Virus record (IMG/VR): IMGVR_UViG_3300015608_003951
Coordinates: 98,307 to 162,306 of that record
Reading direction: 5' to 3' (one strand)
From: a virus
Taxonomy: Duplodnaviria; Caudoviricetes
Length of the DNA: 64,000 nucleotides
Shown here piece after piece: positions 4,986-43,361 of the stretch (position 1 is its first letter; each line of letters starts with the position of its first letter). A program made the translations under genes and the position numbers. The notes beneath the pieces were generated by a model. It did no database searches. It saw only the letters and a program-made list of their open reading frames with translations, and was not told where the DNA came from.

Positions 4986-6022
4986 ATACGTGGGTACTTT
5001 GTTGGCTGCTTACAGCGGTTGAGGCAATAGGAGGTATAGGTTGGCGCACTGTTTAGCGCCTGGTGCACTTCTTCTGGGGTCAAGGCGTCCGGCTGGAGCT
5101 TACCTCCACGAGGGTAGAGGGGTAGGCGAACATCGCTACTTTCGCTCAGCTTCTCTGCCATCTCGTACCGGTGGTCTCCTGCCGGGTCTTGGTCCAAAAA
5201 CAGATAGAGCACCCCGTTGAGTCGTTCAAGCAGCGCTTGCTGCTCCTCGGTCATAATCGATCCGAGCAACGCGACCACGTAAGGGTAGCCGCACTGGCGC
5301 AACCACAGGGTGCTCTTGAATCCTTCGCTAACGATGACTGGTGAACCAGGCGCGTGCTCGCTGATCGCGGCGACCTGGTCGTAGTTCCATAGCAGCTTCC
5401 CTTTCTCTGGCGGGTCGAGGAGCGGTAGGCCCCACCTCCCATATTCCCGTTTTGTGTAAACTTTGTATCGAGGCACTTGATCCTCGAAGATGGACCTGCC
5501 GCTGAACCCCACGAGCTGCCCCGTGTGGTCTCTGAGCGGGAAGGTGATTCGACAGTTCTTCCTGTCGAATCCAACGTTGAACGTCCTCAGCAGCCTCTTG
5601 GAGAACCCTGCCCGAATCAAGTCCGTAGGGGCCTCATCGAAGAGACCCAACGATTCCTCTGGCAGCACACGGTCCTTGGGGAAGGCGCGCACCCAGACAG
5701 CTTGGTCGGCCACATCCAGCTGGGACTCCCGCTGGATCTCGGCCGCCAACTCCACGATCTTCTCGATGGAGCCCGAGGGGGACCCAAGCCCCCGCAGCAA
5801 TGCCCGGAAGTTTCCGCACCTCTTACACGCATGACACAGCCAGAGGCCTGTCTCGGTGTGGATGGCAAAGGAGGGTGTGTGGTCCCTGCCTGTAGCGTGC
5901 GGGAACGGGCAGAGGGCCATCACATTGCCCCTGCCCGCGCGCCTGGTCTCACCAAGTAGCTGTTGGATGACGGGGAGGAGGAACCCCTCACCCATCGGCG
6001 CCACCGCCCCCATCGATGTCAT
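4982..6022 (-). CDS. DnaG-like primase
   Basis: Zinc finger CPFPH..DHTPSF..CHAC; TOPRIM motifs SEG and LDQD; probable start MGEGF near 5995. Confidence 0.9.
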   Translation of the reverse strand: MTSMGAVAPMGEGFLLPVIQQLLGETRRAGRGNVMALCPFPHATGRDHTPSFAIHTETGLWLCHACKRCGNFRALLRGLGSPSGSIEKIVELAAEIQRESQLDVADQAVWVRAFPKDRVLPEESLGLFDEAPTDLIRAGFSKRLLRTFNVGFDRKNCRITFPLRDHTGQLVGFSGRSIFEDQVPRYKVYTKREYGRWGLPLLDPPEKGKLLWNYDQVAAISEHAPGSPVIVSEGFKSTLWLRQCGYPYVVALLGSIMTEEQQALLERLNGVLYLFLDQDPAGDHRYEMAEKLSESSDVRLPLYPRGGKLQPDALTPEEVHQALNSAPTYTSYCLNRCKQPTKYPRI

Positions 6023-20048: not shown

Positions 20049-23000
20049 ATGGCCTTCCAAGACCCAGACGAGGCTTTCGACAACGTTGTCCGGCACACGG
20101 TGACCGCGCTGAATGGCGTGTTCCCCCTGCGGGGGCGGGACAAGTCTCTGCACTTGGAGGCGTTGCACATCGATACGGCGGCCAAGGATCCTCACGACAT
20201 CGGATCCCAGTACAAGGCCAAGCTAGGCGAGGAGACTTGGTCCATCCCCGTCCATGGGACCATGGTGCTCAAGAACGAGAAGGGGGAGGTTCTCGATCGC
20301 AAGAAGATCAAGATCTTGGACCTTCCCAGGACCACCAACCGGCTCAGCTACATCTACCGCGGTCAAGAGCACCAGGTGGCCAACCAATGGCAGCTTCGGC
20401 CTGGCGCTTACACCCGGCGCAGGAGCAACGGCGAACTGCGTACGCAGTTCAACGTGACGGGCAGGGCCGCTTTTGACCTTACCTTTGACCCCCCGACCAA
20501 CCAGTTCTCTATCCTCTACAAGAAGGCCAATATGCCCGCGTACCCCATCCTCAAGGCGATGGGGGTGACCGACACGGAGCTTCAGCAGGCTTGGGGGAAG
20601 GACATCTGGGAGGCCAACGCCAAGAACAGGCGTAACTCCAGCACGCTCGCGCAGTTCTACAGGACCAGCACCAACACGCAGGGGTCTCCGACGGAACAGC
20701 AGGCGCTGGATAACCTGCACAAGGTCATGGCGGCCAGCAAACTCCACCCCGATGTGACGGAGATCACCCTGGGTAAGCGCTTCGAAAGCGTGGAGGGGGA
20801 TGCCCTCACCCGTGCATCCAAGAGGCTGCTTGCCGTGCAGGCGGGCCAGCCCGAGGACGACCGTGACGCCTTGCCCTTCAAGGTGCTCAGGGCCACGGGG
20901 GAGCTGCTGCATGACCAGATCAAAGCAGCGGTACCCAACGTGAAGATGAAGATGTCGAGGCAGCTGAACAAGGGGTCGGACAAGCTGCACGACATCGTCA
21001 CGCCAGGGTTCCTGAACCCCGCGGTCAGCGCCCTGTTCCAGAGTGCTCTGGTCAACCCGGCCAAACAGGTGAGCCCGCTCGACATGCTGGGCACGGCCAT
21101 GCAGACGACGATTATGGGCCCCGGCGGCATCAGGTCGGAGACGCAGGTGACGGACGAGGCCAAGTACATCAACCCGTCGCACCTGGGGTTTATCGACCCC
21201 TTCGCTACGCCGGAAGGCTCGAACACGGGGGTGTCCCTGCGCCTTCCCATCGGAGTGAAGCTGATTGGAGATCAGCCCCACATCCCCCTCTACAACAACC
21301 GCACCAAGAAGATGGAGTGGGTCAGCCCTGCCACCGCCTACAAGAGCAAGGTGGCCCTGGCAGACCAGGTGGAGTTTGTGGATGGGCACCCCAAGCCGAT
21401 CGCAAAGAAGGTGAAGATTCTCGGCAAGGACAATGAGATCGTCGAGGGCCCGCTCCATGAGGCGGACTACGTCATGCGTAGCCCGTCCAACATGTTCGCC
21501 CTCACCTCCGCCATGGTGCCGTTTGTGCAGAACAACAGCGGCGGGCGCGTCAGCATGGCCATCCGTCACATGGAGCAAAGCATTTCCTTGAAGGACAGGG
21601 ACAAGCCCCTCGTTCAAGTGGCAGGGCCGGCCGGTGACACCTTCGAGAAGCTATTCGGGCACCAGATCGGGCACCTCGCCCCGCACGACGGCGTCGTCAC
21701 CAAGGTCACGCCTCACGCCATCCACGTGAAGGGGGCGGACGGTAAGAGCGCCGTGGTTCAGCTCTACCATAACTACCCCCTGAACGACTCGAAGAGCGTG
21801 TTCCACTCGGAGGCCCTTGTTAAGGAGGGGGACAAGGTAAAGACGGGCCAGCCCCTCGCCGATACGAACTTCACCCGAGGCGGGGTCTTCGCGCCGGGTA
21901 AGAACCTGCGTGTGGCCTACATGCCGTACTTCGGCAAGAACTTCGAAGACTCCATGGTGGTCACGGAGAGCGCTGCGAAGAAGCTCTCCAGCGTGCACCT
22001 GACCAAGCACTTCTTGAACACGGACGACCGCACCGTATTCGGCAAGACCAAGTTCCAGAACACCAACCCTGGTCTGTACCGCAAGGAGCAGTACGAGCAC
22101 CTGGATGACCAGGGCTTCCCCAAGGTCGGGTCGAAGGTACAGCCGGGGGATCCGCTGCTCCTCGCACTTCAGCCTTTCACCCTCAAGGACCGCGTAGGTG
22201 TGGGGGCTCTCCGCAAGAGCCTCACCAGCCAGCACACGGACAAGAGCCTTCGCTGGGAGGGTGAGACCGAGGGCGAGGTCGTCGCTGTGCATAAAAGCCC
22301 CAAGGGGGTGCACATACACGTCAAATCTGTGGAACCCTTGCAGATCGCTGACAAGCTCTGCTTCGATGAAAATACCGAGGTCCTTACGCGCACAGGCTGG
22401 AAGCCTGTGTCCAAGGTGAACCTGCAAGATGAGGTCTGTACCCTGCTTGACGGGGAGATCCGCTACAGCCGCCCTTCCGAAGTCCACAGCTACGCAGAAG
22501 GGGGTCGGATGTACTCGTTGGAGACGCAACAGATCGACCTTCTTGTGACCGCAAACCACCGGATGTACGTGCAAGAGTCCACCCGTGACCGCGAGCGCCC
22601 CTACAAGCTGGTGAGGGCCGACACTCTTCTTGGTAAGCGCGTCCGCTACAAGAAAGACGGCAACTGGGCAGGTCGTGCCGCTGCCGTTAACGGCTCCGGG
22701 GTGTTGGGGCTTACGGGCCGCGACTACCTGGCTCTCCTTGGGATGTTTTTGTCCGAAGGCTGTTGCGTGAATGCTCCGGAGTCTGGCACCTACGGCATCG
22801 ACATCGCCCAGGTGAAGCCCACGGGCAGAGAGGAGCTCTTTGCCGAGCTCGATAGGATGGGGGTTCGGTACACCAAGACCCCTGATCGTGCCCGGATCCA
22901 CTCCAAGGAAGCCCTGGCGCACTTCCAGACTTTCGGTAAGTGCAAGGACAAGTTCATCCCAAACGAAGTCTTCGACTACCCGAAGGACGACTTGGACGTG

Positions 23001-26000
23001 CTCTTCCGGTGGCTCATGTGGGGGGACGGCCACACGAAGAATGATCGTCCTATCTGCTACACCACCACGTCTCGTCGGCTGGCCGATGATGTGCAGCGCC
23101 TCTGTCTGCACATCGGTAAGGCGGCCAACATCAAGGTTGATCCAGCCCACGCGTTCGAACAAAACGGCCGGACCTACTGGGCGTCGGAGCGCTACACCGT
23201 TCGGATCATCAACAGCAAACTGGCTCCGGAGGTAAACCACCACCACGCCAAGAAGCAGAACGCGCAGAGTGAGAGGATCATCGAAAACTACACAGGCCCT
23301 GTTTTCTGTGTAACGGTCCCCGGTCACGTCCTCTACGTGCGTCGTAACGGAAAGCCCTGCTGGAGCGGCAACAGCAACCGCCACGGCGGCAAGGGCGTTG
23401 TCGGCTACATCATCCCGGACCACGAGGCGCCCAAGACCAAAGACGGCAAACCCGTGGACATCATCTTCAACCCGCTAGGGTTGGGTGGCCGTATGAACGT
23501 GGGCCAGGTGTACGAGACCTTGGCCGGCAAGATCGCTGAGAAGACTGGCAAGACGTACGTGGTCAAGAACTTCGATCCTCACGTCGAGGATTGGAGTCAG
23601 AAGATGGCCAAGGAGCTCAAGGAGCACGGCATCTCCGACAAGGAGGAGCTGATCGACCCGAAGACGGGGCAGAGCCTGGGCAAGGTCCTGGTCGGGCCTC
23701 AGCACTTCATCAAGCTCGTGCACCAAGCTGCAAAGAAGAACTCCGTGCGCGCAGGCATGGGGCTCCCCAAGCTGCCCTCCGACGAGAAGTACGACTCCCT
23801 TACCTTTGCCCCGGCTTCTGGCGGAGGTACCGGCGGACAGAGCTACGGCCAGCTCGGCATGTACGCCCTGCTCGCGCACGGGGCGAAGAACATCCTCCGC
23901 GCGGCCATGACCTACAAGTCCGAGGGTGAGGACCCGGAGACCGATGAGGCCAAGAAGTGGAAGAGTCAGCACGTAGAGGCCTGGATGGCGATGCAGAAAG
24001 GTCTGCCGTTGCCGCCCCCTAAGCCGACGTTTGCCTTCCACCGCTTCACGGAGATGCTCAAGGGCGCTGGCATTAACGTCGAGAAGAAGGGGTCCGAGTT
24101 CTTTCTATCCCCCATGACGGACAAGCAAGTCCTATCGATGAGTGCCGGTGCGATCAAGGACGCGGCCTCTGCGGTCCACTCGAAGATGGACCCGACCACC
24201 AACCAGTACAAGCCGATTACCGGAGGTATCTTCGACGAGAAGATGACGGGGGGCCACGGCGGAACCAAGTGGTCTCACATCCCCCTGTCGGAGCCCCTCC
24301 CCAACCCTATCTTCGAAGAGCCCATCAAGAAGCTCCTGGGCATCACGGGGCCCCGTTTTGAAGAGATTCTCCAGGGCAAAGTCAAGGTCAACGGCAAGGT
24401 GGGCGGCCACGCTATCGAGGAGATGCTCAAGGGCATCAAGGTGGCGGATGAGCTCTCGAAGACCAAGGCAGCCCTGAACAAGGCCCCACCCTCCACGGCA
24501 GACGCCCTTTATAGGAAGGCGCGGTACCTCCAGGCCCTCGACAAGCTCGGGCTAAAGCCCGAAGAGGCCTATGTGCTGCACAACGTGCCGGTGCTGCCCC
24601 CCAAGCTGCGCCCCCTCTCCGTCATGGAAGACGGCGCGCTTCGCTTCGAGGACACCAACGGCTTCTACATGAAGCTTGGGCAGATCAACAGCAAGCTCGG
24701 CCACCCCGCCATGGCGTACCTGCCCGAGGCAGAGAAGGCTCCCTTCCGTATGGCGGTCTACGACGGGGTCAAGGCCCTGTTCGGCGCGGGAGCTCTGCCG
24801 GAGGGGGCTAAGCAGAAAGGCCTTCTCCAGCAGATCCACGGCACGTCACCCAAGCTCGGTCTCTTCCAGCAGGGGTTGCTGTCGCGTCGCCAGGACATGA
24901 GCGCCCGAGGTGTGATCATCCCTGGACCGGATCTCCACCTCGACCAGGTCGGGCTGCCCGAAAAGCAGGCGCTGACCCTGTTCCGGCCCTTCGTCGTCAA
25001 CCAGCTCGTCAAGTCCGGAAGGTCCAAGACTACGCTGGAAGCCCAGGAGGTCCTCAGCCAGGTGGAGCGCGGCAAATCGGACCCCTCCGTCTGGTCCGCA
25101 CTCAATCAGGTCTTGAGCGAGCGCCCTGTCCTGATCAAGCGAGACCCCGCTCTGCACAAGTACTCTATCCAGGCCTTCTACGCCCAGGCCATCCCCGGCA
25201 ACGCCATCAAGCTGCACCCGCTGGTAACCGGCGGGTTTAACGCGGACCACGACGGGGACAGCATCAAGGGGCGCGTCCTGTTGGCCGAGCGCGTTCACGG
25301 CACCTGGCTGGCTCGATCCTGCGACATCAAGGACTTCCCGAGGGTGGCTGGGTCGGAGCATCGCTCGCTGGGCGGAACGAAGGAGTACGATGTCCCGCCC
25401 AGCACTTACGTGTTTGGCATGGTGAACGGCTCCATGCGCCCGTGTGCGGTGCGCTCCTTCAGCGTCCATCCTGGGTGCGTCGCCTGGGAGGTCACCTTCC
25501 GGTCTGGACGCAAGGTGATCTGCTCCCAGGACCACTCTCTTGCCGTACTGGATACGGCTACGCTCACCGCCACCAACTGCAAGCCCGCAAACTCCGTGGG
25601 GGCAGCCGTACCCGTGTTGGGCCGTGTAGAGGAGCACCTGAGCCCCAGTATCCCAGTCCATGGCCGGGAGGAGAAAGCTACGGAGGCTCTTGGCCATGCG
25701 TTGGGGGAGGAGCTTGCCCTTTACGACGGCAACCCCTTGGCTCAGGAGCGCTGCACCCCTCCCCAGAAGTACCGGTCGACTACCCTTCTTCGCACGCTCC
25801 TTGAGTCTGCGATCATCCGGCCCACAGCTTTCAGGCAGGGTGTCCTTACGGGGTTCTTGGGGGCGGCTCTGGACATCGACACGGCGCGTGTCGATACGAC
25901 TGACCCCCGCGCCCTCTGCAACTTGTTGCGCAGCGTGGGGGTGCCGTGCAGGGAGGAGCGAGACTCTGTGCTCTTGTGCAGGGATTCGCTCTACAAGGCC

Positions 26001-28463
26001 TCCTGGTTCAAGCCCAGCGCGTGGAATCGCAAGAGGCTCTGGCGCAAGGGGGGTAAGAGCACCATGGTCGATCTGGTGCCCTTCCCTGCCTGGGTGGCGG
26101 ACGAGATTGGAGAAGGCGTGCAGTCCGGATGGGTGGAGCGCTCCACGGCTGCGCGACTCTACGAAGCCCACAAGAACCCCACGTCGTTCGTGCAGGCCTG
26201 GTATCGCATGACCGTCGGGGGCGGCCTATTCTGGGATGAGATCGTCTCCGTCAAGGAGACTGGCGACAAGGAAGAGCTCTACGACCTCACCGTGGACGAA
26301 AGCCTCAACTTCGTGATGGACGACGGTCTCCTCGTCTGGGACACGATGAGCGTCTACGTGCCGTCATCGCACGACGAGGTGAGCGACGCCATCAAGATGC
26401 TCCCCTCCAAGAACCTGTTCAACGAGACCACCGGAGCTCCTGCCTACACGCCCTCCATGGAGGCCCAGCTAGGGCTGCACAAGCTCGGCAGGGTCGGGGC
26501 GGACACGAACCATAAGTTCCCTGACAAGCACGCCGCTATTGACGCCCTAGCGCTCCAGAAGATCACGGTGTCGGACAAGATCCATGTGGCAGGCGAACAG
26601 ACGACGGCTGGCAGGATTCTTCTGGCAGAGGCTATGCCGGAGGCCATGCAGCATCGTGTGCGCACAGACCTTGGGCTCTCCTTCAACGGCAAGGCCTTGA
26701 AGGGTCTGTTTTCCGAGGTCGGCAAGGCGCACGCGAAGGACTTCCCCGTCTTCGCTGACAAGATGAAGGAGCTTGGCTACGGGGCTGCGTCTGGTCTGGT
26801 AAGGACTCCCCTGACCAAGCACGCCGTTGTGCCTGTCGGGGCGCACTCCTTTGGGCTCTCCGACTTCTTCGCTGATAAGGAAGCGCGTGACCCCGTGCTC
26901 CAGAAGGCACACGCTGACGTGGAAGCTCTGAAGGGCCTGAGCAAGGCGGAGAAGGACCGCCGCACGGTCGACATCTACCTCAAGGCCTCCGCCGAGATGC
27001 GCGAGCGGCACAAGAAGACGGGGGACCCGGACAACAGCCTCAAGCGCATGAACGAGGCTGGCGTCAAGCCGAGCGACGACCAGTACCAGCAGCTGCGGCT
27101 TGCGCCTGTCGTCATGAAAGACAGCGCGGATCGCCTCATCCCCACGCCGATCGTTCACTCCTTCGGGGAGGGGTTGAAGATGCATGAGTACTGGATCGGC
27201 GCTTACGGTGCGCGTTCCGGCGCGGTCAAGAAGGTGCAGGAGGTGCAGGACCCTGGGTACATGACCAAGCTCCTCCAGAACACCTCGATGTCCTACCTGA
27301 TCGATAGCCACGACTGTGGGACGAAGGCGGGCATCTCCATGCCTGCCACGCATAAGGACGTGGTGGACCGGCATCTGGCGGCAGACCTGAAGCTGGGAGC
27401 CCTCCACCTGCCCGCAGGCACCCTCCTCGACAAGAAGACCTTGGATCACATCGTCTCCGTGGATCCCGGGGCCAAGCTTACGGTCAGGTCCCCGCTTACC
27501 TGCGATAGCGAGAAGGGGGTCTGCCAGAAGTGCTTTGGCCTGTCGTCCAACGGCAAGCATCACGACCTGGGCACGAATATCGGCGTCCTCAGCGCGCACG
27601 CCTTGGGTGAGCGAGCTGTGCAGCTGACGCTGAAGGCGTTTCACTCCGGCGGTGTCGCTACGGACCGTAAGGGTGGGGCTGTGGGTAGCTTCCAGCGCCT
27701 CGAACAGCTCACCTTCTTGCCGGACAAGACGCCCAACAGCGCCTCTCTCGTCAACGTGAATGGCAAGGTGACGAAGATCGTACCCACGCCTACCGGAGCC
27801 GAGGTGTTCGTGGGAGACCATCGTCACTTCGTGGGTAAGGACCCGGATGGCCACTACCTGCACGAGGACCTTCCTCATGCGGACTCCGTGCCCGGGTATC
27901 AGCCCTGGTCCCCGCCCAAGGTGGGCATGGAGGTGAAGCGCGGGGACATGCTCAGCGATCCAAACCGCACGATGATCAACCCGCACAGGCTTTACGAGGC
28001 CACCCACGACATGCCGCGGGTTCAGCGCTTTCTGTCCGATGAGATGCACAAACTCTATGAGTCGGAGGGGGTTCGTAAGCGCGCCATCGAGGTGGTCGTG
28101 AAGGCGATGGGCAACGTCACGAAGATCGTGGACCCTCACGATCACCCGGACTTCCTCCGCGGGCAGTTCTATCCTCGGTCCTCCTTGAAGAAGGTTAACG
28201 CCGAGAGGGTTGCAGAGGGTAAGCCTCCGGTGGAGCACAGCCCCGTGCTCATGGGCGTGGACATGCTGCCCCTGGCTGCGACGACCGACTGGATGGCTGT
28301 GCTCAACCACCAGAGGCTCCGGGGCACGCTCAAGGAGAACGCTGCGCTCGGGGCTGTCAGCCGGCTCCACGGCTCGCACCCGGTGCCCGGACTTGCTTAT
28401 GGGGCAGAGTTCGGCAAGCCTGGGGTAGAGACTAAGGGCAAGAATCGACCTTTCGACTACTGA
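20049..28463 (+). CDS. single-chain beta-beta' fused DNA-dependent RNA polymerase with two inteins
   Basis: Beta motifs: TPEG, NFEDS, ADKL/SNRHGGKG, NPLG..GRMNVGQ. Beta' motifs: PVLPPKLRP, RDPALH, NADHDGD, bridge helix GARSG..GYMTK, trigger loop QLTLKAFHSGG. Confidence 0.96.
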   Translation: MAFQDPDEAFDNVVRHTVTALNGVFPLRGRDKSLHLEALHIDTAAKDPHDIGSQYKAKLGEETWSIPVHGTMVLKNEKGEVLDRKKIKILDLPRTTNRLSYIYRGQEHQVANQWQLRPGAYTRRRSNGELRTQFNVTGRAAFDLTFDPPTNQFSILYKKANMPAYPILKAMGVTDTELQQAWGKDIWEANAKNRRNSSTLAQFYRTSTNTQGSPTEQQALDNLHKVMAASKLHPDVTEITLGKRFESVEGDALTRASKRLLAVQAGQPEDDRDALPFKVLRATGELLHDQIKAAVPNVKMKMSRQLNKGSDKLHDIVTPGFLNPAVSALFQSALVNPAKQVSPLDMLGTAMQTTIMGPGGIRSETQVTDEAKYINPSHLGFIDPFATPEGSNTGVSLRLPIGVKLIGDQPHIPLYNNRTKKMEWVSPATAYKSKVALADQVEFVDGHPKPIAKKVKILGKDNEIVEGPLHEADYVMRSPSNMFALTSAMVPFVQNNSGGRVSMAIRHMEQSISLKDRDKPLVQVAGPAGDTFEKLFGHQIGHLAPHDGVVTKVTPHAIHVKGADGKSAVVQLYHNYPLNDSKSVFHSEALVKEGDKVKTGQPLADTNFTRGGVFAPGKNLRVAYMPYFGKNFEDSMVVTESAAKKLSSVHLTKHFLNTDDRTVFGKTKFQNTNPGLYRKEQYEHLDDQGFPKVGSKVQPGDPLLLALQPFTLKDRVGVGALRKSLTSQHTDKSLRWEGETEGEVVAVHKSPKGVHIHVKSVEPLQIADKLCFDENTEVLTRTGWKPVSKVNLQDEVCTLLDGEIRYSRPSEVHSYAEGGRMYSLETQQIDLLVTANHRMYVQESTRDRERPYKLVRADTLLGKRVRYKKDGNWAGRAAAVNGSGVLGLTGRDYLALLGMFLSEGCCVNAPESGTYGIDIAQVKPTGREELFAELDRMGVRYTKTPDRARIHSKEALAHFQTFGKCKDKFIPNEVFDYPKDDLDVLFRWLMWGDGHTKNDRPICYTTTSRRLADDVQRLCLHIGKAANIKVDPAHAFEQNGRTYWASERYTVRIINSKLAPEVNHHHAKKQNAQSERIIENYTGPVFCVTVPGHVLYVRRNGKPCWSGNSNRHGGKGVVGYIIPDHEAPKTKDGKPVDIIFNPLGLGGRMNVGQVYETLAGKIAEKTGKTYVVKNFDPHVEDWSQKMAKELKEHGISDKEELIDPKTGQSLGKVLVGPQHFIKLVHQAAKKNSVRAGMGLPKLPSDEKYDSLTFAPASGGGTGGQSYGQLGMYALLAHGAKNILRAAMTYKSEGEDPETDEAKKWKSQHVEAWMAMQKGLPLPPPKPTFAFHRFTEMLKGAGINVEKKGSEFFLSPMTDKQVLSMSAGAIKDAASAVHSKMDPTTNQYKPITGGIFDEKMTGGHGGTKWSHIPLSEPLPNPIFEEPIKKLLGITGPRFEEILQGKVKVNGKVGGHAIEEMLKGIKVADELSKTKAALNKAPPSTADALYRKARYLQALDKLGLKPEEAYVLHNVPVLPPKLRPLSVMEDGALRFEDTNGFYMKLGQINSKLGHPAMAYLPEAEKAPFRMAVYDGVKALFGAGALPEGAKQKGLLQQIHGTSPKLGLFQQGLLSRRQDMSARGVIIPGPDLHLDQVGLPEKQALTLFRPFVVNQLVKSGRSKTTLEAQEVLSQVERGKSDPSVWSALNQVLSERPVLIKRDPALHKYSIQAFYAQAIPGNAIKLHPLVTGGFNADHDGDSIKGRVLLAERVHGTWLARSCDIKDFPRVAGSEHRSLGGTKEYDVPPSTYVFGMVNGSMRPCAVRSFSVHPGCVAWEVTFRSGRKVICSQDHSLAVLDTATLTATNCKPANSVGAAVPVLGRVEEHLSPSIPVHGREEKATEALGHALGEELALYDGNPLAQERCTPPQKYRSTTLLRTLLESAIIRPTAFRQGVLTGFLGAALDIDTARVDTTDPRALCNLLRSVGVPCREERDSVLLCRDSLYKASWFKPSAWNRKRLWRKGGKSTMVDLVPFPAWVADEIGEGVQSGWVERSTAARLYEAHKNPTSFVQAWYRMTVGGGLFWDEIVSVKETGDKEELYDLTVDESLNFVMDDGLLVWDTMSVYVPSSHDEVSDAIKMLPSKNLFNETTGAPAYTPSMEAQLGLHKLGRVGADTNHKFPDKHAAIDALALQKITVSDKIHVAGEQTTAGRILLAEAMPEAMQHRVRTDLGLSFNGKALKGLFSEVGKAHAKDFPVFADKMKELGYGAASGLVRTPLTKHAVVPVGAHSFGLSDFFADKEARDPVLQKAHADVEALKGLSKAEKDRRTVDIYLKASAEMRERHKKTGDPDNSLKRMNEAGVKPSDDQYQQLRLAPVVMKDSADRLIPTPIVHSFGEGLKMHEYWIGAYGARSGAVKKVQEVQDPGYMTKLLQNTSMSYLIDSHDCGTKAGISMPATHKDVVDRHLAADLKLGALHLPAGTLLDKKTLDHIVSVDPGAKLTVRSPLTCDSEKGVCQKCFGLSSNGKHHDLGTNIGVLSAHALGERAVQLTLKAFHSGGVATDRKGGAVGSFQRLEQLTFLPDKTPNSASLVNVNGKVTKIVPTPTGAEVFVGDHRHFVGKDPDGHYLHEDLPHADSVPGYQPWSPPKVGMEVKRGDMLSDPNRTMINPHRLYEATHDMPRVQRFLSDEMHKLYESEGVRKRAIEVVVKAMGNVTKIVDPHDHPDFLRGQFYPRSSLKKVNAERVAEGKPPVEHSPVLMGVDMLPLAATTDWMAVLNHQRLRGTLKENAALGAVSRLHGSHPVPGLAYGAEFGKPGVETKGKNRPFDY
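22359..23372 (+). mobile_element. intein 1 (338 aa) with LAGLIDADG endonuclease in RNAP beta region
   Basis: DKL|CFDENTEV...TANH...LLGMFLSEG...LMWGDG...WSGN|SNRHG. Confidence 0.92.
25260..26342 (+). mobile_element. intein 2 (361 aa), Ser start and Asp end, directly after RNAP catalytic motif
   Basis: NADHDGD|SIKG...CSQDH...LYDLTV...GLLVWD|TMSVYVP. Confidence 0.85.
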
Positions 28464-33798: not shown

Positions 33799-33962
33799 TC
33801 GATAGGTACACGGACAACCCGGCTTGTTTGGCGTAGCTAGCAACAAGCTCCCGAAGAGCTTCCTTAACGGCGCGGTCCAGCGGGTGCTTGAGCTGAAGAA
33901 ATAGGCCGTCGTCTCTGGACAGCGTGGACCCTGTCCAGCACTCTTCCCCTGCTGAACGAATC

Positions 33963-36900
33963 ATGGCTATCAAGTCCAAAAGTTTTGAAGAGGTCTTGGT
34001 CGACGACGAGTTCGATGACCCCGGGGAGTTCAACTCCGATGAGGGGGTAGATGGGCCAGACATCGGAGACTTGGGGACTTCGGTCATAGAGACAACCCTT
34101 TCTGAGTTCGTTCAAGCGGTTCTCACAATCCCGGACGCGGAGGGGCGCTTTGCACCCTTCTCCTTCCACGGCCGGCGTCACATGATACCCATCTACGATA
34201 CGCCAGCCAGGGACATCCTGCTGATGTGTGGGCGTCAGGTGGAAAAGTGTGTAGGGGCGCGTACCCCCATCCTTCTGCCCTCGGGGGAGGTGCAGGAGAT
34301 CCGGCACTGCAAGGTAGGCCAGCGCGTCGTGACCCTCAAGGGGGAGGGTGTTCTGGGTGAAGGTGAGGTGGTGTGGGTAAGCCCCGAGCGCAGGAAGCCC
34401 TGTCTCAAATTGACAACGCGTACGGGCCACCAGCTCGTCTGTGCCAAGACCCACCCTATCCGGACGTGGGGTGCCTGGACCGAGGCCAAGGACCTCGTGG
34501 TGGGGGACAAGGTAGCGAGTGTCCGTAAGCTGAATGCGCCGGACCTTTATGCCGCTAGCGCGAGGCCCCCCTTCGATGAAGCGCAGGTGTTCAAGATCCT
34601 GTGGACGGCTATCGCTCTTGGTCCTTGCGTGCACCGCGATCCTGGATACCAGGTGGTTTGCAGGACCACGACTATTCGACGGGCCGTCGAGGAGTCGCTG
34701 TTTAATTTGGGGTACACGGAGGACGCCGATTACCGCGTCTACCTGCGCACGCCGGGGTCTAACCCTTCCTTCTATCTCGGTGTGGACTGTAGGAGCGTGC
34801 TCTCGGTGCTTGATTCGACCACAGCAGGCGCGACGATACCCTCCTGGGTGTTCAAGAGCAGCGCGGAGGAGCAGAGGCTCTTCTTGCGGTACCTGTGGGC
34901 GTGCGCAGGCACGGTGCACGTGAGTCTGGCTGGCTCTATCAGCATAAGATTCATGGATCAGCGCCACACGCTTCTGGATAGCCTCCAGCGGCTTCTCTGG
35001 CGTTCAGGGATCCCGACCTCCAGGCGTGTGCAACGCGTAGCCGGGCAGGAGTACGGCTACTTGCGCGTGGAGACCTCCGACGGCATCTCCCGCATGAATA
35101 CGATCCTGTGCGAGGAGCAGAAATACCAGCACGAGCCCGGGCAATCCCGTAGCCCCTACGATACCTTTCCGGACGGCCTTAACCGGGATTTGCGCCTCCT
35201 ACTGGACGACGCTCAGGCCCCTAGTCTCCGGCAGCTGAAGACAAAGATCGATCGAGCTTTCACTCCCGACAGGCTCAAAGCTCTCGTGGGTAAGCTCCAG
35301 GGGTTGAAGCTGCACCCGCACAGGCTGAACGCCATGCAGCAGCACGCGGACACGGATCTGCTGTGGGATAACATTGTCAGCATCGAGCCCGTAGGGGATG
35401 TGAAGTGCCTGGATATCCAGGTGTCGCCAGGCCGCAGCTTCGTGGCCAACGGCCTGGTCACGCACAACAGCACCTACCTTGGTAACAGGGCTTTGGCTCT
35501 TTGTGCCCTTATCCCGGGGTACAAGGTGCTCTACGTCTCCCCCTCCGCCCAGCAGACGAAGACGTTTAGCACGGACAGGCTCAAGCTACCTGTCGAGACC
35601 TCCGCTGTCCTGAAAGCCCTCTCCAAGGGGGCCACGCAGAACGTGTTGGAAAAGGAGTTTAACAACGGAGCTAAGGTGGTCTTGCGTAGCGCCTTCCTGA
35701 GCGCAGACCGCGTGCGTGGCCAGGCCGCGTACCTCCTCGACCTGGATGAGCTGCAAGACCTTATATCCGACCACATCCCCGTCATCGAGCCGGCGATAAG
35801 CCACGCCCCCAAGCTGTACCAGAGTCGATGCTACTCGGGCACGCCGAAGAGCATGAACAACCACATCGAGGAGCGGTGGTCAGGCCTGAACCGTGAGGGC
35901 AGACACCGCAGCACGATGGGCGAGTGGTTGGTGCCCTGTGACCGCTGCGGTTCCAAGGCCAAGACCGCAGGGGGCAGGTTCTGGCAGGCTCTCGGGGAGA
36001 AGAACATAGGGAAGAAGGGGCTGATCTGCTCCAGGTGCGGTAAGCTGATCCAGGCACAGCACCCGGATGCGGGCTGGTACCACCAGCACCCTGAAGGCGA
36101 GTTTGAGGGGTACCGTATCCCCCAGTTGATGGCAGCATGGATCGACTGGGAAAAGATCCTCCACGCCTACAACACCTACCCTCCGCAGCAGTTTTACAAC
36201 GAGGTCCTGGGGCTCAGTCTGGACGCTGCGGACAGGCCCCTTACCTCCTCCGAGATCAACGCATGCTGCGACCCCCGGATATCCATGACAGGCGCCTTCC
36301 GGGGGACGACGTACATCCACCCGGAGCACTTCCTCCCCAGCGTGTGGTCAAACCCTGTATTTGCAGGCATTGACTGGGGGTTCGGCACCAGCAGTTACAC
36401 GATCCTGTCTCTGGGCACCTACCTGAACGGTAAGTTCACGGTCTTCTACATGAAGCGCTTCACGGGGGCTGAGGCCTCTGATTTCCAGCTCCAGATGAAT
36501 ATCATCGTGGAGATCCTTACGCGATTTCAGGTGAAGATCTGCGGCACGGACTTCGGCTTCGGGGTACAGCAGAACGACACCCTGATGCGGATATTTGGGC
36601 CTGGCCGTATCCAGGTGTACCAGCACTTGGCCCGGGCAAAGTACAAGGTGGAGTACGATCGCAAGATCCACCGATGGAAGCTTTACCGTACGCTGGTCAT
36701 GGCGGACCACATCAACGCCATCAAGCGTAAAGCTGTGGTCTTTCCGAGGTGGGAGGAGTTTGGCGGATCCTTCGCGGAGGACTTCACCAACATTACTGCG
36801 GAATATAGCGAGACGCAGCGCATGGTCGTCTACGACCACGCCAGCAACAAGACGGACGACGCCTTCCACAGCTACCTCTACCTATTCCTGGCCAGTCAGG

Positions 36901-36998
36901 TGGCCATCAAGCGTCCGGACATCCTTGTCCCTACGGTGATCGGCACGCCGGGCCAGCACCCCATCTTTGTCTCGATGGACCCCATCGATCAGAGCTAA
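33963..36998 (+). CDS. terminase large subunit (lambda gpA-like) with intein
   Basis: Walker A GRQVEK|ST, YVSPS, RG, LDE, GTPK, CxxC pairs, FYNEVLG, GIDWG, DDAFH. Confidence 0.9.
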   Translation: MAIKSKSFEEVLVDDEFDDPGEFNSDEGVDGPDIGDLGTSVIETTLSEFVQAVLTIPDAEGRFAPFSFHGRRHMIPIYDTPARDILLMCGRQVEKCVGARTPILLPSGEVQEIRHCKVGQRVVTLKGEGVLGEGEVVWVSPERRKPCLKLTTRTGHQLVCAKTHPIRTWGAWTEAKDLVVGDKVASVRKLNAPDLYAASARPPFDEAQVFKILWTAIALGPCVHRDPGYQVVCRTTTIRRAVEESLFNLGYTEDADYRVYLRTPGSNPSFYLGVDCRSVLSVLDSTTAGATIPSWVFKSSAEEQRLFLRYLWACAGTVHVSLAGSISIRFMDQRHTLLDSLQRLLWRSGIPTSRRVQRVAGQEYGYLRVETSDGISRMNTILCEEQKYQHEPGQSRSPYDTFPDGLNRDLRLLLDDAQAPSLRQLKTKIDRAFTPDRLKALVGKLQGLKLHPHRLNAMQQHADTDLLWDNIVSIEPVGDVKCLDIQVSPGRSFVANGLVTHNSTYLGNRALALCALIPGYKVLYVSPSAQQTKTFSTDRLKLPVETSAVLKALSKGATQNVLEKEFNNGAKVVLRSAFLSADRVRGQAAYLLDLDELQDLISDHIPVIEPAISHAPKLYQSRCYSGTPKSMNNHIEERWSGLNREGRHRSTMGEWLVPCDRCGSKAKTAGGRFWQALGEKNIGKKGLICSRCGKLIQAQHPDAGWYHQHPEGEFEGYRIPQLMAAWIDWEKILHAYNTYPPQQFYNEVLGLSLDAADRPLTSSEINACCDPRISMTGAFRGTTYIHPEHFLPSVWSNPVFAGIDWGFGTSSYTILSLGTYLNGKFTVFYMKRFTGAEASDFQLQMNIIVEILTRFQVKICGTDFGFGVQQNDTLMRIFGPGRIQVYQHLARAKYKVEYDRKIHRWKLYRTLVMADHINAIKRKAVVFPRWEEFGGSFAEDFTNITAEYSETQRMVVYDHASNKTDDAFHSYLYLFLASQVAIKRPDILVPTVIGTPGQHPIFVSMDPIDQS
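34248..35468 (+). mobile_element. intein (407 aa) in terminase Walker A
   Basis: EK|CVGART...CAKTH...LDIQV...GLVTHN|STY; endonuclease motifs look degenerate. Confidence 0.92.
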
Positions 36999-42489: not shown

Positions 42490-42813
42490 TCAGCGCCCTC
42501 GGCAGTCGCCGATCGGGCGCTCCTCCGCCCCGAAGGGCGGAATCCGCCGGAAGGTCTCCCTCAGGCCCTGGAGGTCGCGGGAGGTCTTGTACTCGGCCTC
42601 CCGCACCCAGCGCCCCGCCTTGTCCTGAAAGCGGGGCAGCACCAGTGTCCACGTGGACACGTTTTCCCAGCCGCTGCCGGCTGGGCGCATCCCGTCCGAC
42701 GAGGCGTCCCATTGGACGAACGCCTCGCGGACGCTTTCGTGCCGCTTTGCCTCTGGGTAGGGCAATTGCGCCCTCCAGAGGTCGAAGCGGGCCTTCTTTC
42801 TCTCCGCCCGCAT
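42490..42813 (-). CDS. hypothetical protein
   Basis: AAGGAGG SD; followed by a hairpin and T-rich run. Confidence 0.6.
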   Translation of the reverse strand: MRAERKKARFDLWRAQLPYPEAKRHESVREAFVQWDASSDGMRPAGSGWENVSTWTLVLPRFQDKAGRWVREAEYKTSRDLQGLRETFRRIPPFGAEERPIGDCRGR

Positions 42814-42844
42814 CCTTCCCTCCTTCCTTACCTTCCTTAGCTAA

Positions 42845-43348
42845 AAAGCCGCTATTCCCCGTAGATTACTCTACAGGCAGGTGCGGCAAACCCCTGCAAC
42901 CCTCCAACAGTCGCGCCCGCGACCGTTCGAGGCTGTCCACCTTTCACCAAGGGCTGGGTGTTCCCTTGGCTGCCCCGTTCATGACTCGGGGCACGCTCCG
43001 GCGTGGGTTTCCGGGACCTTCGCTGCAACGTCGAGTAACTTTTCAGTACCTGGATGATCAGTCCAGGCCCTGTGGGCGCCACATATGTGGCGCGTACTCG
43101 AACCGCCTCGCGCGGCGGACCAGTGAGGGGCCGTACGTTGCAGCCCTCGTGGATGCGACGGGAATCGAACCCGCTACGCTAGTCGATCGCTACTTACCCA
43201 TGGGTGCTCGGGGAGATGAGCAACAGCATGGGGGTTTTGATCTGGCTAACGGCCGACCACCAGTCGGCACACCCTGACGCCCTGGCCCCCGTAGGGGCTT
43301 CGAGCTAGGCACCTGCCAGTTACCCCGAAGGATATGCGGGTGCCATCT
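42845..43348 (-). ncRNA. large structured ncRNA with embedded tRNA-like domain (43150-43274)
   Basis: More than 10 hairpins, UNCG and GNRA loops, long-range helices, canonical T-arm; promoter-like motif upstream and TTTTTAGC downstream. Confidence 0.75.
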
Positions 43349-43353
43349 ATATT

Positions 43354-43361
43354 CTTATGCC
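43354..43361 (-). promoter_or_regulatory. example of recurrent GG[ACG]ATAA[CG] promoter-like motif
   Basis: About 10 copies upstream of minus-strand gene starts and of the ncRNA. Confidence 0.55.

What the first reader, a model, noticed from the sequence alone, without database searches (positions are those of the whole stretch)
42845..43348. About 500-nt highly structured ncRNA of unrecognised class
Seen on the minus strand: closing helix GGCAGGUGC (~43317-43309) with GCACCUGCC (~42884-42876); internal GCUGCAACG/CGUUGCAGC and UCGAGUA/UACUCGA helices; hairpins UAUCC-UUCG-GGGUA, GCCCC-UACG-GGGGC, GCGCCAC/GUGGCGC, CCUGGA/UCCAGG, UGCCCCG/CGGGGCA, CCAAGGG/CCCUUGG, AACGGUCGC/GCGACUGUU and GUAGA-GUAA-UCUAC. 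It has its own promoter-like motif, a TTTTTAGC end, and no convincing ORF. Established: phages carry large structured RNAs (GOLLD, ROOL), some with embedded tRNAs. I recognise no RNase P or intron consensus here.
Basis: partly seen in the sequence, partly recalled or inferred. Interest (0 to 1): 0.8.

Follow-up and report, generated by a model that had tools for sequence, protein, structure and literature searches.

The report
Phage tag-less tmRNA mimic plus structured RNA
The 560-base gene-free gap of this large uncultured phage most likely makes a folded non-coding RNA whose core copies only the tRNA-like head of the bacterial ribosome-rescue RNA (tmRNA), a type already known from one mycobacteriophage; the other 300 bases fold strongly but match nothing known.

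Summary
The region (minus strand, 43348-42843) is non-coding and strongly folded, so the observation largely holds. The long-range "closing helix" is not favoured and is no better than chance.

The RNA is not wholly unrecognisable. Positions 43274-43150 form a 125-nt alanine-identity tRNA-like domain. It has a 7-bp acceptor stem with G3:U70, discriminator A, a canonical T-arm and no anticodon. Rfam tmRNA matches it weakly (18 bits, E 6e-5, below the gathering score).

The phage belongs to a large uncultured clade. Six of 31 large relatives carry full tmRNAs whose 3' ends read ...UCCA|CGA, as here. Ours has no tag reading frame and no pseudoknot ring between the two halves of the domain. Its architecture matches the known tRNA-like-domain-only tmRNA of mycobacteriophage DS6A, which the literature links to tmRNA inhibition through SmpB titration.

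The 300-nt 3' domain (z = -4.5) ends in a terminator-like stem plus U5. It has no homologue in 54 relatives or 80 metagenome loci. Only 99.4 %-identical copies exist. They show one compensatory C:G to G:C swap, so covariation cannot be tested, and there are no expression data.

This scan had already noted the same tRNA-like stretch, and it has reported anticodon-less tRNA-shaped phage RNAs on other DNA.

Verdict: a new variant of a known kind, of moderate interest.

The parts
43347..43359 (-). Its status is uncertain.
   Evidence: It is the most AT-rich spot of the gap. It does not match the sigma-70 consensus and does not recur in the genome. The phage encodes its own fused beta-beta' RNA polymerase, whose promoters are unknown.
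43308..43344 (-). 5' hairpin A: GGCACC/GGUGCC enclosing UAUCC-UUCG-GGGUA (a C(UUCG)G tetraloop).
   Evidence: Pair probabilities 0.99 and 0.92.
43279..43305 (-). 5' hairpin B: GCUC/GGGC enclosing GCCCC-UACG-GGGGC (a C(UACG)G tetraloop).
   Evidence: Pair probabilities 0.92 and 0.96.
43150..43274 (-). tRNA-like domain of tmRNA type with no tag ORF. Acceptor stem 43274-43268 / 43157-43151 (GGGUGUG/CGCAUCC, with G3:U70). Discriminator A at 43150. D-loop analogue 43267-43253 (CCGAC-UGGUG-GUCGG). Closed 75-nt arm 43251-43177. T-arm 43174-43158 (GCGGG-UUCGAUU-CCCGU). CCA is not encoded; the trailer is CGA.
   Evidence: Rfam tmRNA scores 18 bits, E 5.9e-5, end to end, with the middle of the model deleted. 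Its 25-nt 3' end is identical to those of phage tmRNAs. Clade tmRNAs share ...UCCA|CGA. The DS6A domain-only tmRNA aligns to it over its full length. Helix probabilities are 0.83-0.97.
43022..43144 (-). Multi-branched domain closed by GCUGCAACG(U)/(A)CGUUGCAGC. It holds CCGCC/GGCGG, UCGAGUA/UACUCGA, GCGCCAC-AUAU-GUGGCGC and GCCUGGA/UCCAGGU.
   Evidence: Probabilities 0.55-1.00. z = -4.8. Model R2 finds no homologue.
42906..42993 (-). Three strong hairpins: UGCCCCG/CGGGGCA (42993-42971), GCCAAGGG/CCCUUGGU (42970-42946) and AACGGUCGC/GCGACUGUU (42927-42906).
   Evidence: Probabilities 0.91-1.00. The variant contigs L012-L015 carry C42960G together with G42954C, a C:G to G:C swap inside the second hairpin's loop. 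Model R3 finds no homologue.
42843..42887 (-). Terminator-like 3' end: outer stem GCCGC/GCGGC, inner GNRA hairpin CCUGUAGA-GUAA-UCUACGGG, then UUUUU (42847-42843).
   Evidence: Probabilities 0.98 and 0.99. The purine-rich ribosome-binding site and the ATG of the next gene (42813) follow directly.

Best explanation
The gap between the 202-aa and 107-aa genes is a non-coding RNA locus read on the minus strand, from about 43350 to the U-run at 42843.

Its core is a tmRNA that has kept only its tRNA-like domain. That domain has an alanine-identity acceptor stem (G3:U70, A73), a tmRNA-style D-loop analogue, a canonical T-arm, and a closed hairpin where full tmRNAs carry the tag message and pseudoknots.

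Inferred mechanism:
- The host's RNase P cuts 5' of G43274.
- A 3' endonuclease cuts after A43150 and the host CCA-adding enzyme completes the end.
- This releases a roughly 125-nt RNA that SmpB, and possibly AlaRS and EF-Tu, can bind.
- It offers no resume codon, so it competes with the host tmRNA and damps or redirects ribosome rescue during infection. This is the role reported for molecules like the DS6A domain-only tmRNA.

The two 5' UNCG hairpins and the 300-nt 3' domain are co-transcribed, lineage-specific structured RNA. Processing would free them as separate stable pieces, and their role is unknown.

Shown here: non-coding status, the fold, the anatomy of the tRNA-like domain, the absence of a tag, and the presence of tmRNA in the clade. 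Inferred: transcription, processing, charging, SmpB binding and the effect on the host.
For: Non-coding and structured.

tRNA-like domain:
- Rfam tmRNA is the only significant family match (E 5.9e-5).
- The sequence shows a 7/7 acceptor pairing with G3:U70 and A73.
- The 25-nt T-arm plus acceptor end recurs in ten viral contigs, nine of which ARAGORN calls as tmRNA genes.

Clade context:
- TerL homology places the phage in a clade with 361 IMG/VR relatives.
- Six of 31 large relatives carry full tmRNAs scoring 71-140 bits, with ANDN... tags.
- In three of the six the 3' end reads ...UCCA|CGA without an encoded CCA, exactly as here.

No message part:
- No tag-like ORF exists in any frame.
- A profile of the clade's tmRNAs matches only the T-arm and acceptor end.
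- No permuted-tmRNA model matches.

Precedent:
- DS6A carries an 83-nt domain-only tmRNA with the same layout and the shared D-loop analogue UGGUGGUCG.
- PMC4131195 and PMC11915505 state that such a molecule inhibits tmRNA, perhaps by titrating SmpB.

Against a DNA-level reading: the genome has no integrase, and no bacterial genome among 185,579 species carries the 25-mer.
Against: - The tmRNA score (18 bits) is far below the gathering score (47) and below DS6A's 43 bits.
- My own model of the domain scores DS6A (29 bits) no better than ordinary tRNAs (24-38 bits), so the link to DS6A is one of architecture, not demonstrated homology.
- The arm is 75 nt against about 30 nt in DS6A.
- The D-loop analogue can also fold into a 5-7-bp hairpin that steals G7 from the acceptor stem.
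- The phage encodes no SmpB and no CCA-adding enzyme.
- No diverged homologue exists, so no covariation is available.
- The model does not explain the 300-nt 3' domain, which is the most strongly structured part.
Confidence: 0.5

Rival explanations
1. It is one integrated large RNA of about 500 nt and a new class, in the manner of GOLLD or ROOL. The tRNA-like module is a built-in structural or recognition element that is not cut out, and the whole RNA works as a unit.
For: The 3' domain is the most strongly structured part (z = -4.5). UNCG and GNRA tetraloops occur throughout. A terminator-like end follows a single gene-free block. No Rfam family matches. The one substitution pair seen inside the RNA is compensatory.
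Against: The proposed closing helix is not favoured and is at chance level. No complementarity above chance links the domains. Models R2 and R3 find no homologue in 54 clade relatives or 80 metagenome loci. A 7-bp acceptor stem with a free leader is a standard RNase P substrate (established knowledge; M. smegmatis YrlA is cut in this way, PMC4201824).
Confidence: 0.17
2. The tRNA-like piece belongs to the broad, largely unannotated set of anticodon-less, tRNA-shaped phage RNAs that carry an insert where the anticodon arm should be. Phage T5 RNA1/RNA2 and T4 species 1 RNA are comparable cases. It has nothing to do with ribosome rescue, and the alanine features are inherited baggage.
For: My pattern scans turned up other phage tRNA-shaped genes of 110-140 nt with inserts. 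Clade relatives G012 and G042 carry tRNA-shaped RNAs with a Y-RNA module in the anticodon position. Earlier notes of this scan report many such families (these are leads only).
Against: Those RNAs keep a canonical D-arm and score as tRNA (42-49 bits). Ours lacks a canonical D-arm, is not called by ARAGORN, and its best clan match is tmRNA. Its acceptor end is that of phage tmRNAs.
Confidence: 0.15
3. It is a long structured 5' leader, or attenuator, of the downstream 107-aa gene. The terminator stem just before the ribosome-binding site alternates with the long-range GGCAGGUGC/GCACCUGCC pairing as an antiterminator.
For: The terminator-like stem and U5 end 30 nt before the ATG at 42813. The long-range 9-mer overlaps both terminator stems, and its 5' partner has a local competitor.
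Against: The complementarity is at chance level. The partners are 425 nt apart with a self-contained tRNA-like domain between them. No riboswitch or T-box model matches. A distant homologue of the 107-aa gene's N-terminal domain has only a 235-nt unrelated upstream gap.
Confidence: 0.08
4. It is a decaying remnant of the clade's tmRNA gene with no present function, or a DNA-level element such as a replication origin or an attachment site that copies a host tmRNA end.
For: tmRNA is patchy in the clade (6 of 31). Sequence similarity to clade tmRNAs is confined to 27 nt. Phage attachment sites often copy tmRNA 3' ends (established knowledge).
Against: A remnant would not keep a perfect acceptor stem, T-arm and arm, or gain a 300-nt domain with z = -4.5. 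The genome has no integrase. No bacterial genome carries the 25-mer. The region has the same GC content as the rest of the genome.
Confidence: 0.07

Closest known systems
tRNA-like-domain-only (tag-less) tmRNA of mycobacteriophage DS6A (JN698994, 28478-28560). Described in Mao et al. 2009 as cited by PMC4131195 and PMC11915505.
   Same: It is phage-encoded. It has a 7-bp acceptor stem with G3:U70, the D-loop analogue ...UGGUGGUCG..., a closed arm in place of the message and pseudoknots, a canonical T-arm, no tag ORF and no encoded CCA. It aligns end to end with the model built from our domain.
   Different: DS6A's is 83 nt with an arm of about 30 nt and scores 43 bits on Rfam tmRNA. Ours is 125 nt with a 75-nt arm and scores 18 bits. 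DS6A's sits in a 213-nt gap, whereas ours is embedded in a 500-nt structured transcript. The two phages are unrelated, and no sequence homology beyond the generic core has been shown.
Full-length one-piece tmRNA (Rfam RF00023), as carried by 6 of 31 relatives of this phage.
   Same: The acceptor and T-arm architecture, the alanine identity elements and the ...UCCA|CGA gene end.
   Different: Ours has no resume codon or tag ORF and no PK1-PK4 between the two halves of the tRNA-like domain. It has 128 nt where full tmRNAs have 350-375 nt, and it scores below the gathering threshold.
Mitochondrial (jakobid, oomycete) and Mallomonadaceae plastid tmRNAs that lack a tag reading frame (PMC11915505).
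   Same: These are tmRNA derivatives reduced to the tRNA-like domain.
   Different: They are organellar, about 65 nt long, often permuted, and co-occur with SmpB. The Rfam clan search kept tmRNA, not mt-tmRNA, as the best match for ours.
YrlA-type bacterial and phage Y RNAs with Ro60/Rsr (RF02553; Chen et al. 2014, PMC4201824).
   Same: They are a tRNA mimic without an anticodon, encoded by phages, and a substrate for RNase P and CCA addition in M. smegmatis. Clade relatives G012 and G042 carry such RNAs beside a Ro60 gene. The arm architecture is loosely similar.
   Different: Ours lacks the GNCGAAN0-1G Ro-binding motif and gives no YrlA hit. The genome has no TROVE gene.
GOLLD (RF01998) and ROOL (RF03087), large ornate phage-borne RNAs.
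   Same: They are large structured RNAs in phage genomes and are often found next to tRNAs.
   Different: Neither model matches even at E <= 10. Ours shows no conservation beyond one phage lineage, and it is probably modular rather than one closed fold.

Membership tests
tmRNA (RF00023) | tRNA-like domain: 7-bp acceptor stem with G3:U70, discriminator A, canonical T-arm and no anticodon | tested here: met
   GGGUGUG/CGCAUCC pairs 7/7 with G3:U70 and A73. The T-loop is UUCGAUU on a 5-bp stem.
tmRNA (RF00023) | mRNA-like domain with a resume codon and a tag ORF ending in a stop codon | tested here: not met
   No tag-like ORF exists in any frame. There is no GCN-AAC-GA resume context like that of the clade tmRNAs. 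The clade profile matches only the 3' 27 nt.
tmRNA (RF00023) | Pseudoknot ring (PK1-PK4) between the two halves of the tRNA-like domain | tested here: not met
   Only a 75-nt closed hairpin arm lies between the halves.
tmRNA (RF00023) | Score at or above Rfam's gathering threshold (47 bits) | tested here: not met
   18 bits.
tRNA-like-domain-only tmRNA (DS6A type) | tmRNA-type domain closed by a simple arm, with no tag ORF, encoded by a phage | tested here: met
   The layout is the same as in DS6A, with a full-length alignment. The D-loop analogue UGGUGGUCG is shared.
tRNA-like-domain-only tmRNA (DS6A type) | Binds SmpB and inhibits host trans-translation | not testable with these tools
   Known only from the literature for a DS6A-like molecule (PMC4131195). 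No RNA-protein tool was available.
tRNA-like-domain-only tmRNA (DS6A type) | Demonstrable homology to tmRNA beyond generic tRNA features | tested here: inconclusive
   The acceptor end is identical to phage tmRNA ends and the CGA trailer is shared with clade tmRNAs. However, model R1 scores DS6A no higher than ordinary tRNAs.
tRNA (RF00005) | Anticodon stem-loop and canonical D-arm | tested here: not met
   ARAGORN finds nothing at default settings. At relaxed settings it needs a 57-nt 'intron' at a non-canonical site. tmRNA outscored the other families of the tRNA clan.
YrlA / Y RNA (RF02553) | GNCGAAN0-1G Ro-binding motif and a neighbouring Ro60 (TROVE) gene | tested here: not met
   The arm lacks the motif. 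There is no YrlA hit on the locus. The genome has no TROVE match.
GOLLD / ROOL / RNase P RNA / group I and II introns | Match to the family covariance model | tested here: not met
   Nothing at the gathering score, and nothing at E <= 10 on 1.2 kb or on the 3' domain alone.

The most novel reading that the evidence does not exclude
The locus is a new composite phage RNA. A tag-less tmRNA head and a 300-nt ornate partner domain are made from one transcript and act together on stalled ribosomes or on the SmpB/RNase R machinery, for example as a processed multi-piece particle. That would make it a new class of large phage RNA that tampers with ribosome rescue, rather than a DS6A-like decoy that happens to sit beside unrelated structured RNA.
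Probability: 0.12. Interest if true: 0.75.

Novelty: new variant of a known kind. Interest (0 to 1): 0.45.

Why it matters
Phage interference with bacterial ribosome rescue is little explored. Published evidence for a tmRNA reduced to its tRNA-like domain in a phage rests on one mycobacteriophage (DS6A).

A second, unrelated example would suggest that phages have repeatedly converted tmRNA genes into SmpB-titrating decoys. This one sits in a 162-kb phage of an uncultured clade in which sister phages carry full tmRNAs. That clade would then offer a natural series from full tmRNA to decoy for comparison.

The attached 300-nt domain is among the most strongly folded stretches of the genome. It would be worth probing once a host or a transcriptome is available.

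As it stands the case rests on one lineage, with no expression or covariation data, so it is a lead rather than a discovery.

Tried and rejected
Searches for homologues of the RNA, all negative:
- blastn against 50,697 phage records.
- BLAST against 31 whole relatives.
- Covariance models R1, R2 and R3 against 54 relatives and 80 metagenome loci.
- A strict pattern for the tRNA-like domain in JGI metagenomes.

Searches through the neighbouring genes:
- The 202-aa gene has only a 99 %-identical cluster.
- The 107-aa gene's distant relatives are not syntenic and have no such RNA.
- The closest TerL relatives (55-57 % identity) have no such RNA within 10 kb.
- A search with the phage's own TerL in IMG/VR gave one relative at 46 % identity.

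Readings considered and rejected:
- Permuted two-piece tmRNA. No downstream 5' acceptor strand exists, no permuted-tmRNA model matches, and ARAGORN's 'permuted tmRNA' at relaxed settings is on the wrong strand and is junk.
- RNase P RNA. Short identities to E. coli M1 RNA that I recalled from memory (GGAAACCCACG, GGUGAAAGG) were not backed by any covariance-model hit.
- Intron-containing tRNA. No spliced form yields a 7-nt anticodon loop.
- Attachment site copying a host tmRNA. The genome has no integrase, and no bacterial genome carries the 25-mer.
- Trans pairing of the domain's arm with the 3' domain, to give a two-piece tmRNA. Complementarity is at chance.
- A recurring TTTAGC signal. It is not enriched.

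Full report
Where it is. The window is the last 64 kb of a 162,306-bp IMG/VR virus record that is about 87 % complete and 61 % G+C. The finding lies in a 560-nt gap between two minus-strand genes. One is a 202-aa ORF (43982-43374). The other is a 107-aa ORF whose ATG at 42813 follows a long purine-rich ribosome-binding site. Neither gene, nor any of seven neighbours, matches Pfam.

Noticed in passing
L142:1375-1762 (IMG/VR relative G012, about 89050-89440; the same in G042): Directly after a Ro60/TROVE gene (136 bits) lie three tandem tRNA-shaped RNAs of 110-130 nt. Each has its own perfect 7-bp acceptor stem. In each, the anticodon loop is replaced by the Y-RNA Ro-binding helix (...CUGCAACACUUGUCC-loop-GGACCGAAGUUGAGGGUUAUC). 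This makes them YrlA-like RNAs in tRNA topology, circularly permuted relative to the published YrlA.
   Followed up: partly
L184:730-833 (minus strand; ENA ERZ1645188 NODE-155): A 104-nt miniature tmRNA-like gene (RF00023, 38.7 bits) has the same 25-nt 3' end as ours and an encoded CCA. Its tmRNA-style resume context is ...UAGGUC|GCG AAC GAA AGC AGU CGG UAA, giving the short tag ANESSR*. About 400 nt of non-coding, hairpin-rich sequence precedes it.
   Followed up: partly
L124-L129 (relatives G024, G001, G019, G020, G004, G018): Six of 31 large relatives of this uncultured phage clade encode full one-piece tmRNAs with tags ANDNANQAAA, ANDNATAALPIAA, ANDNEVAQRLAA, ANDNASAVLALAS and ANDNVELPAWMIGASAPEFRAAA. 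None encodes the full CCA end.
   Followed up: partly
L019:1915-2042, L021:5437-5557 and 5278-5391, L022:5425-5563 (IMG/VR phages): These tRNA-model hits of 114-139 nt carry inserts of about 50 nt in the anticodon region. L021's sit in a tRNA array and L019's beside another tRNA-model hit; L022's element gave no tRNA hit. They may be anticodon-less tRNA-shaped RNAs or intron-bearing tRNAs.
   Followed up: no
window 33924-36998 (+) and 20049-28463 (+): The large terminase is a GpA-type ATPase interrupted by an intein with a LAGLIDADG domain. The order from fused beta-beta' RNA polymerase to terminase is conserved in relatives at 51-57 % terminase identity (L025-L028).
   Followed up: partly
window 42490-42813 (-): The first 90 residues or so of the 107-aa gene just downstream of the RNA recur at 42-44 % identity as the N-terminus of much longer proteins (423 and 607 aa) on unrelated metagenome contigs. 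None has a known domain.
   Followed up: partly
genome G000:C1:43797-43871 and 69856-69929 (outside the window): The phage's only ARAGORN-called tRNAs are tRNA-Met(CAT) and tRNA-Leu(TAA). tRNA-Leu lacks an encoded CCA, like the tRNA-like domain.
   Followed up: no
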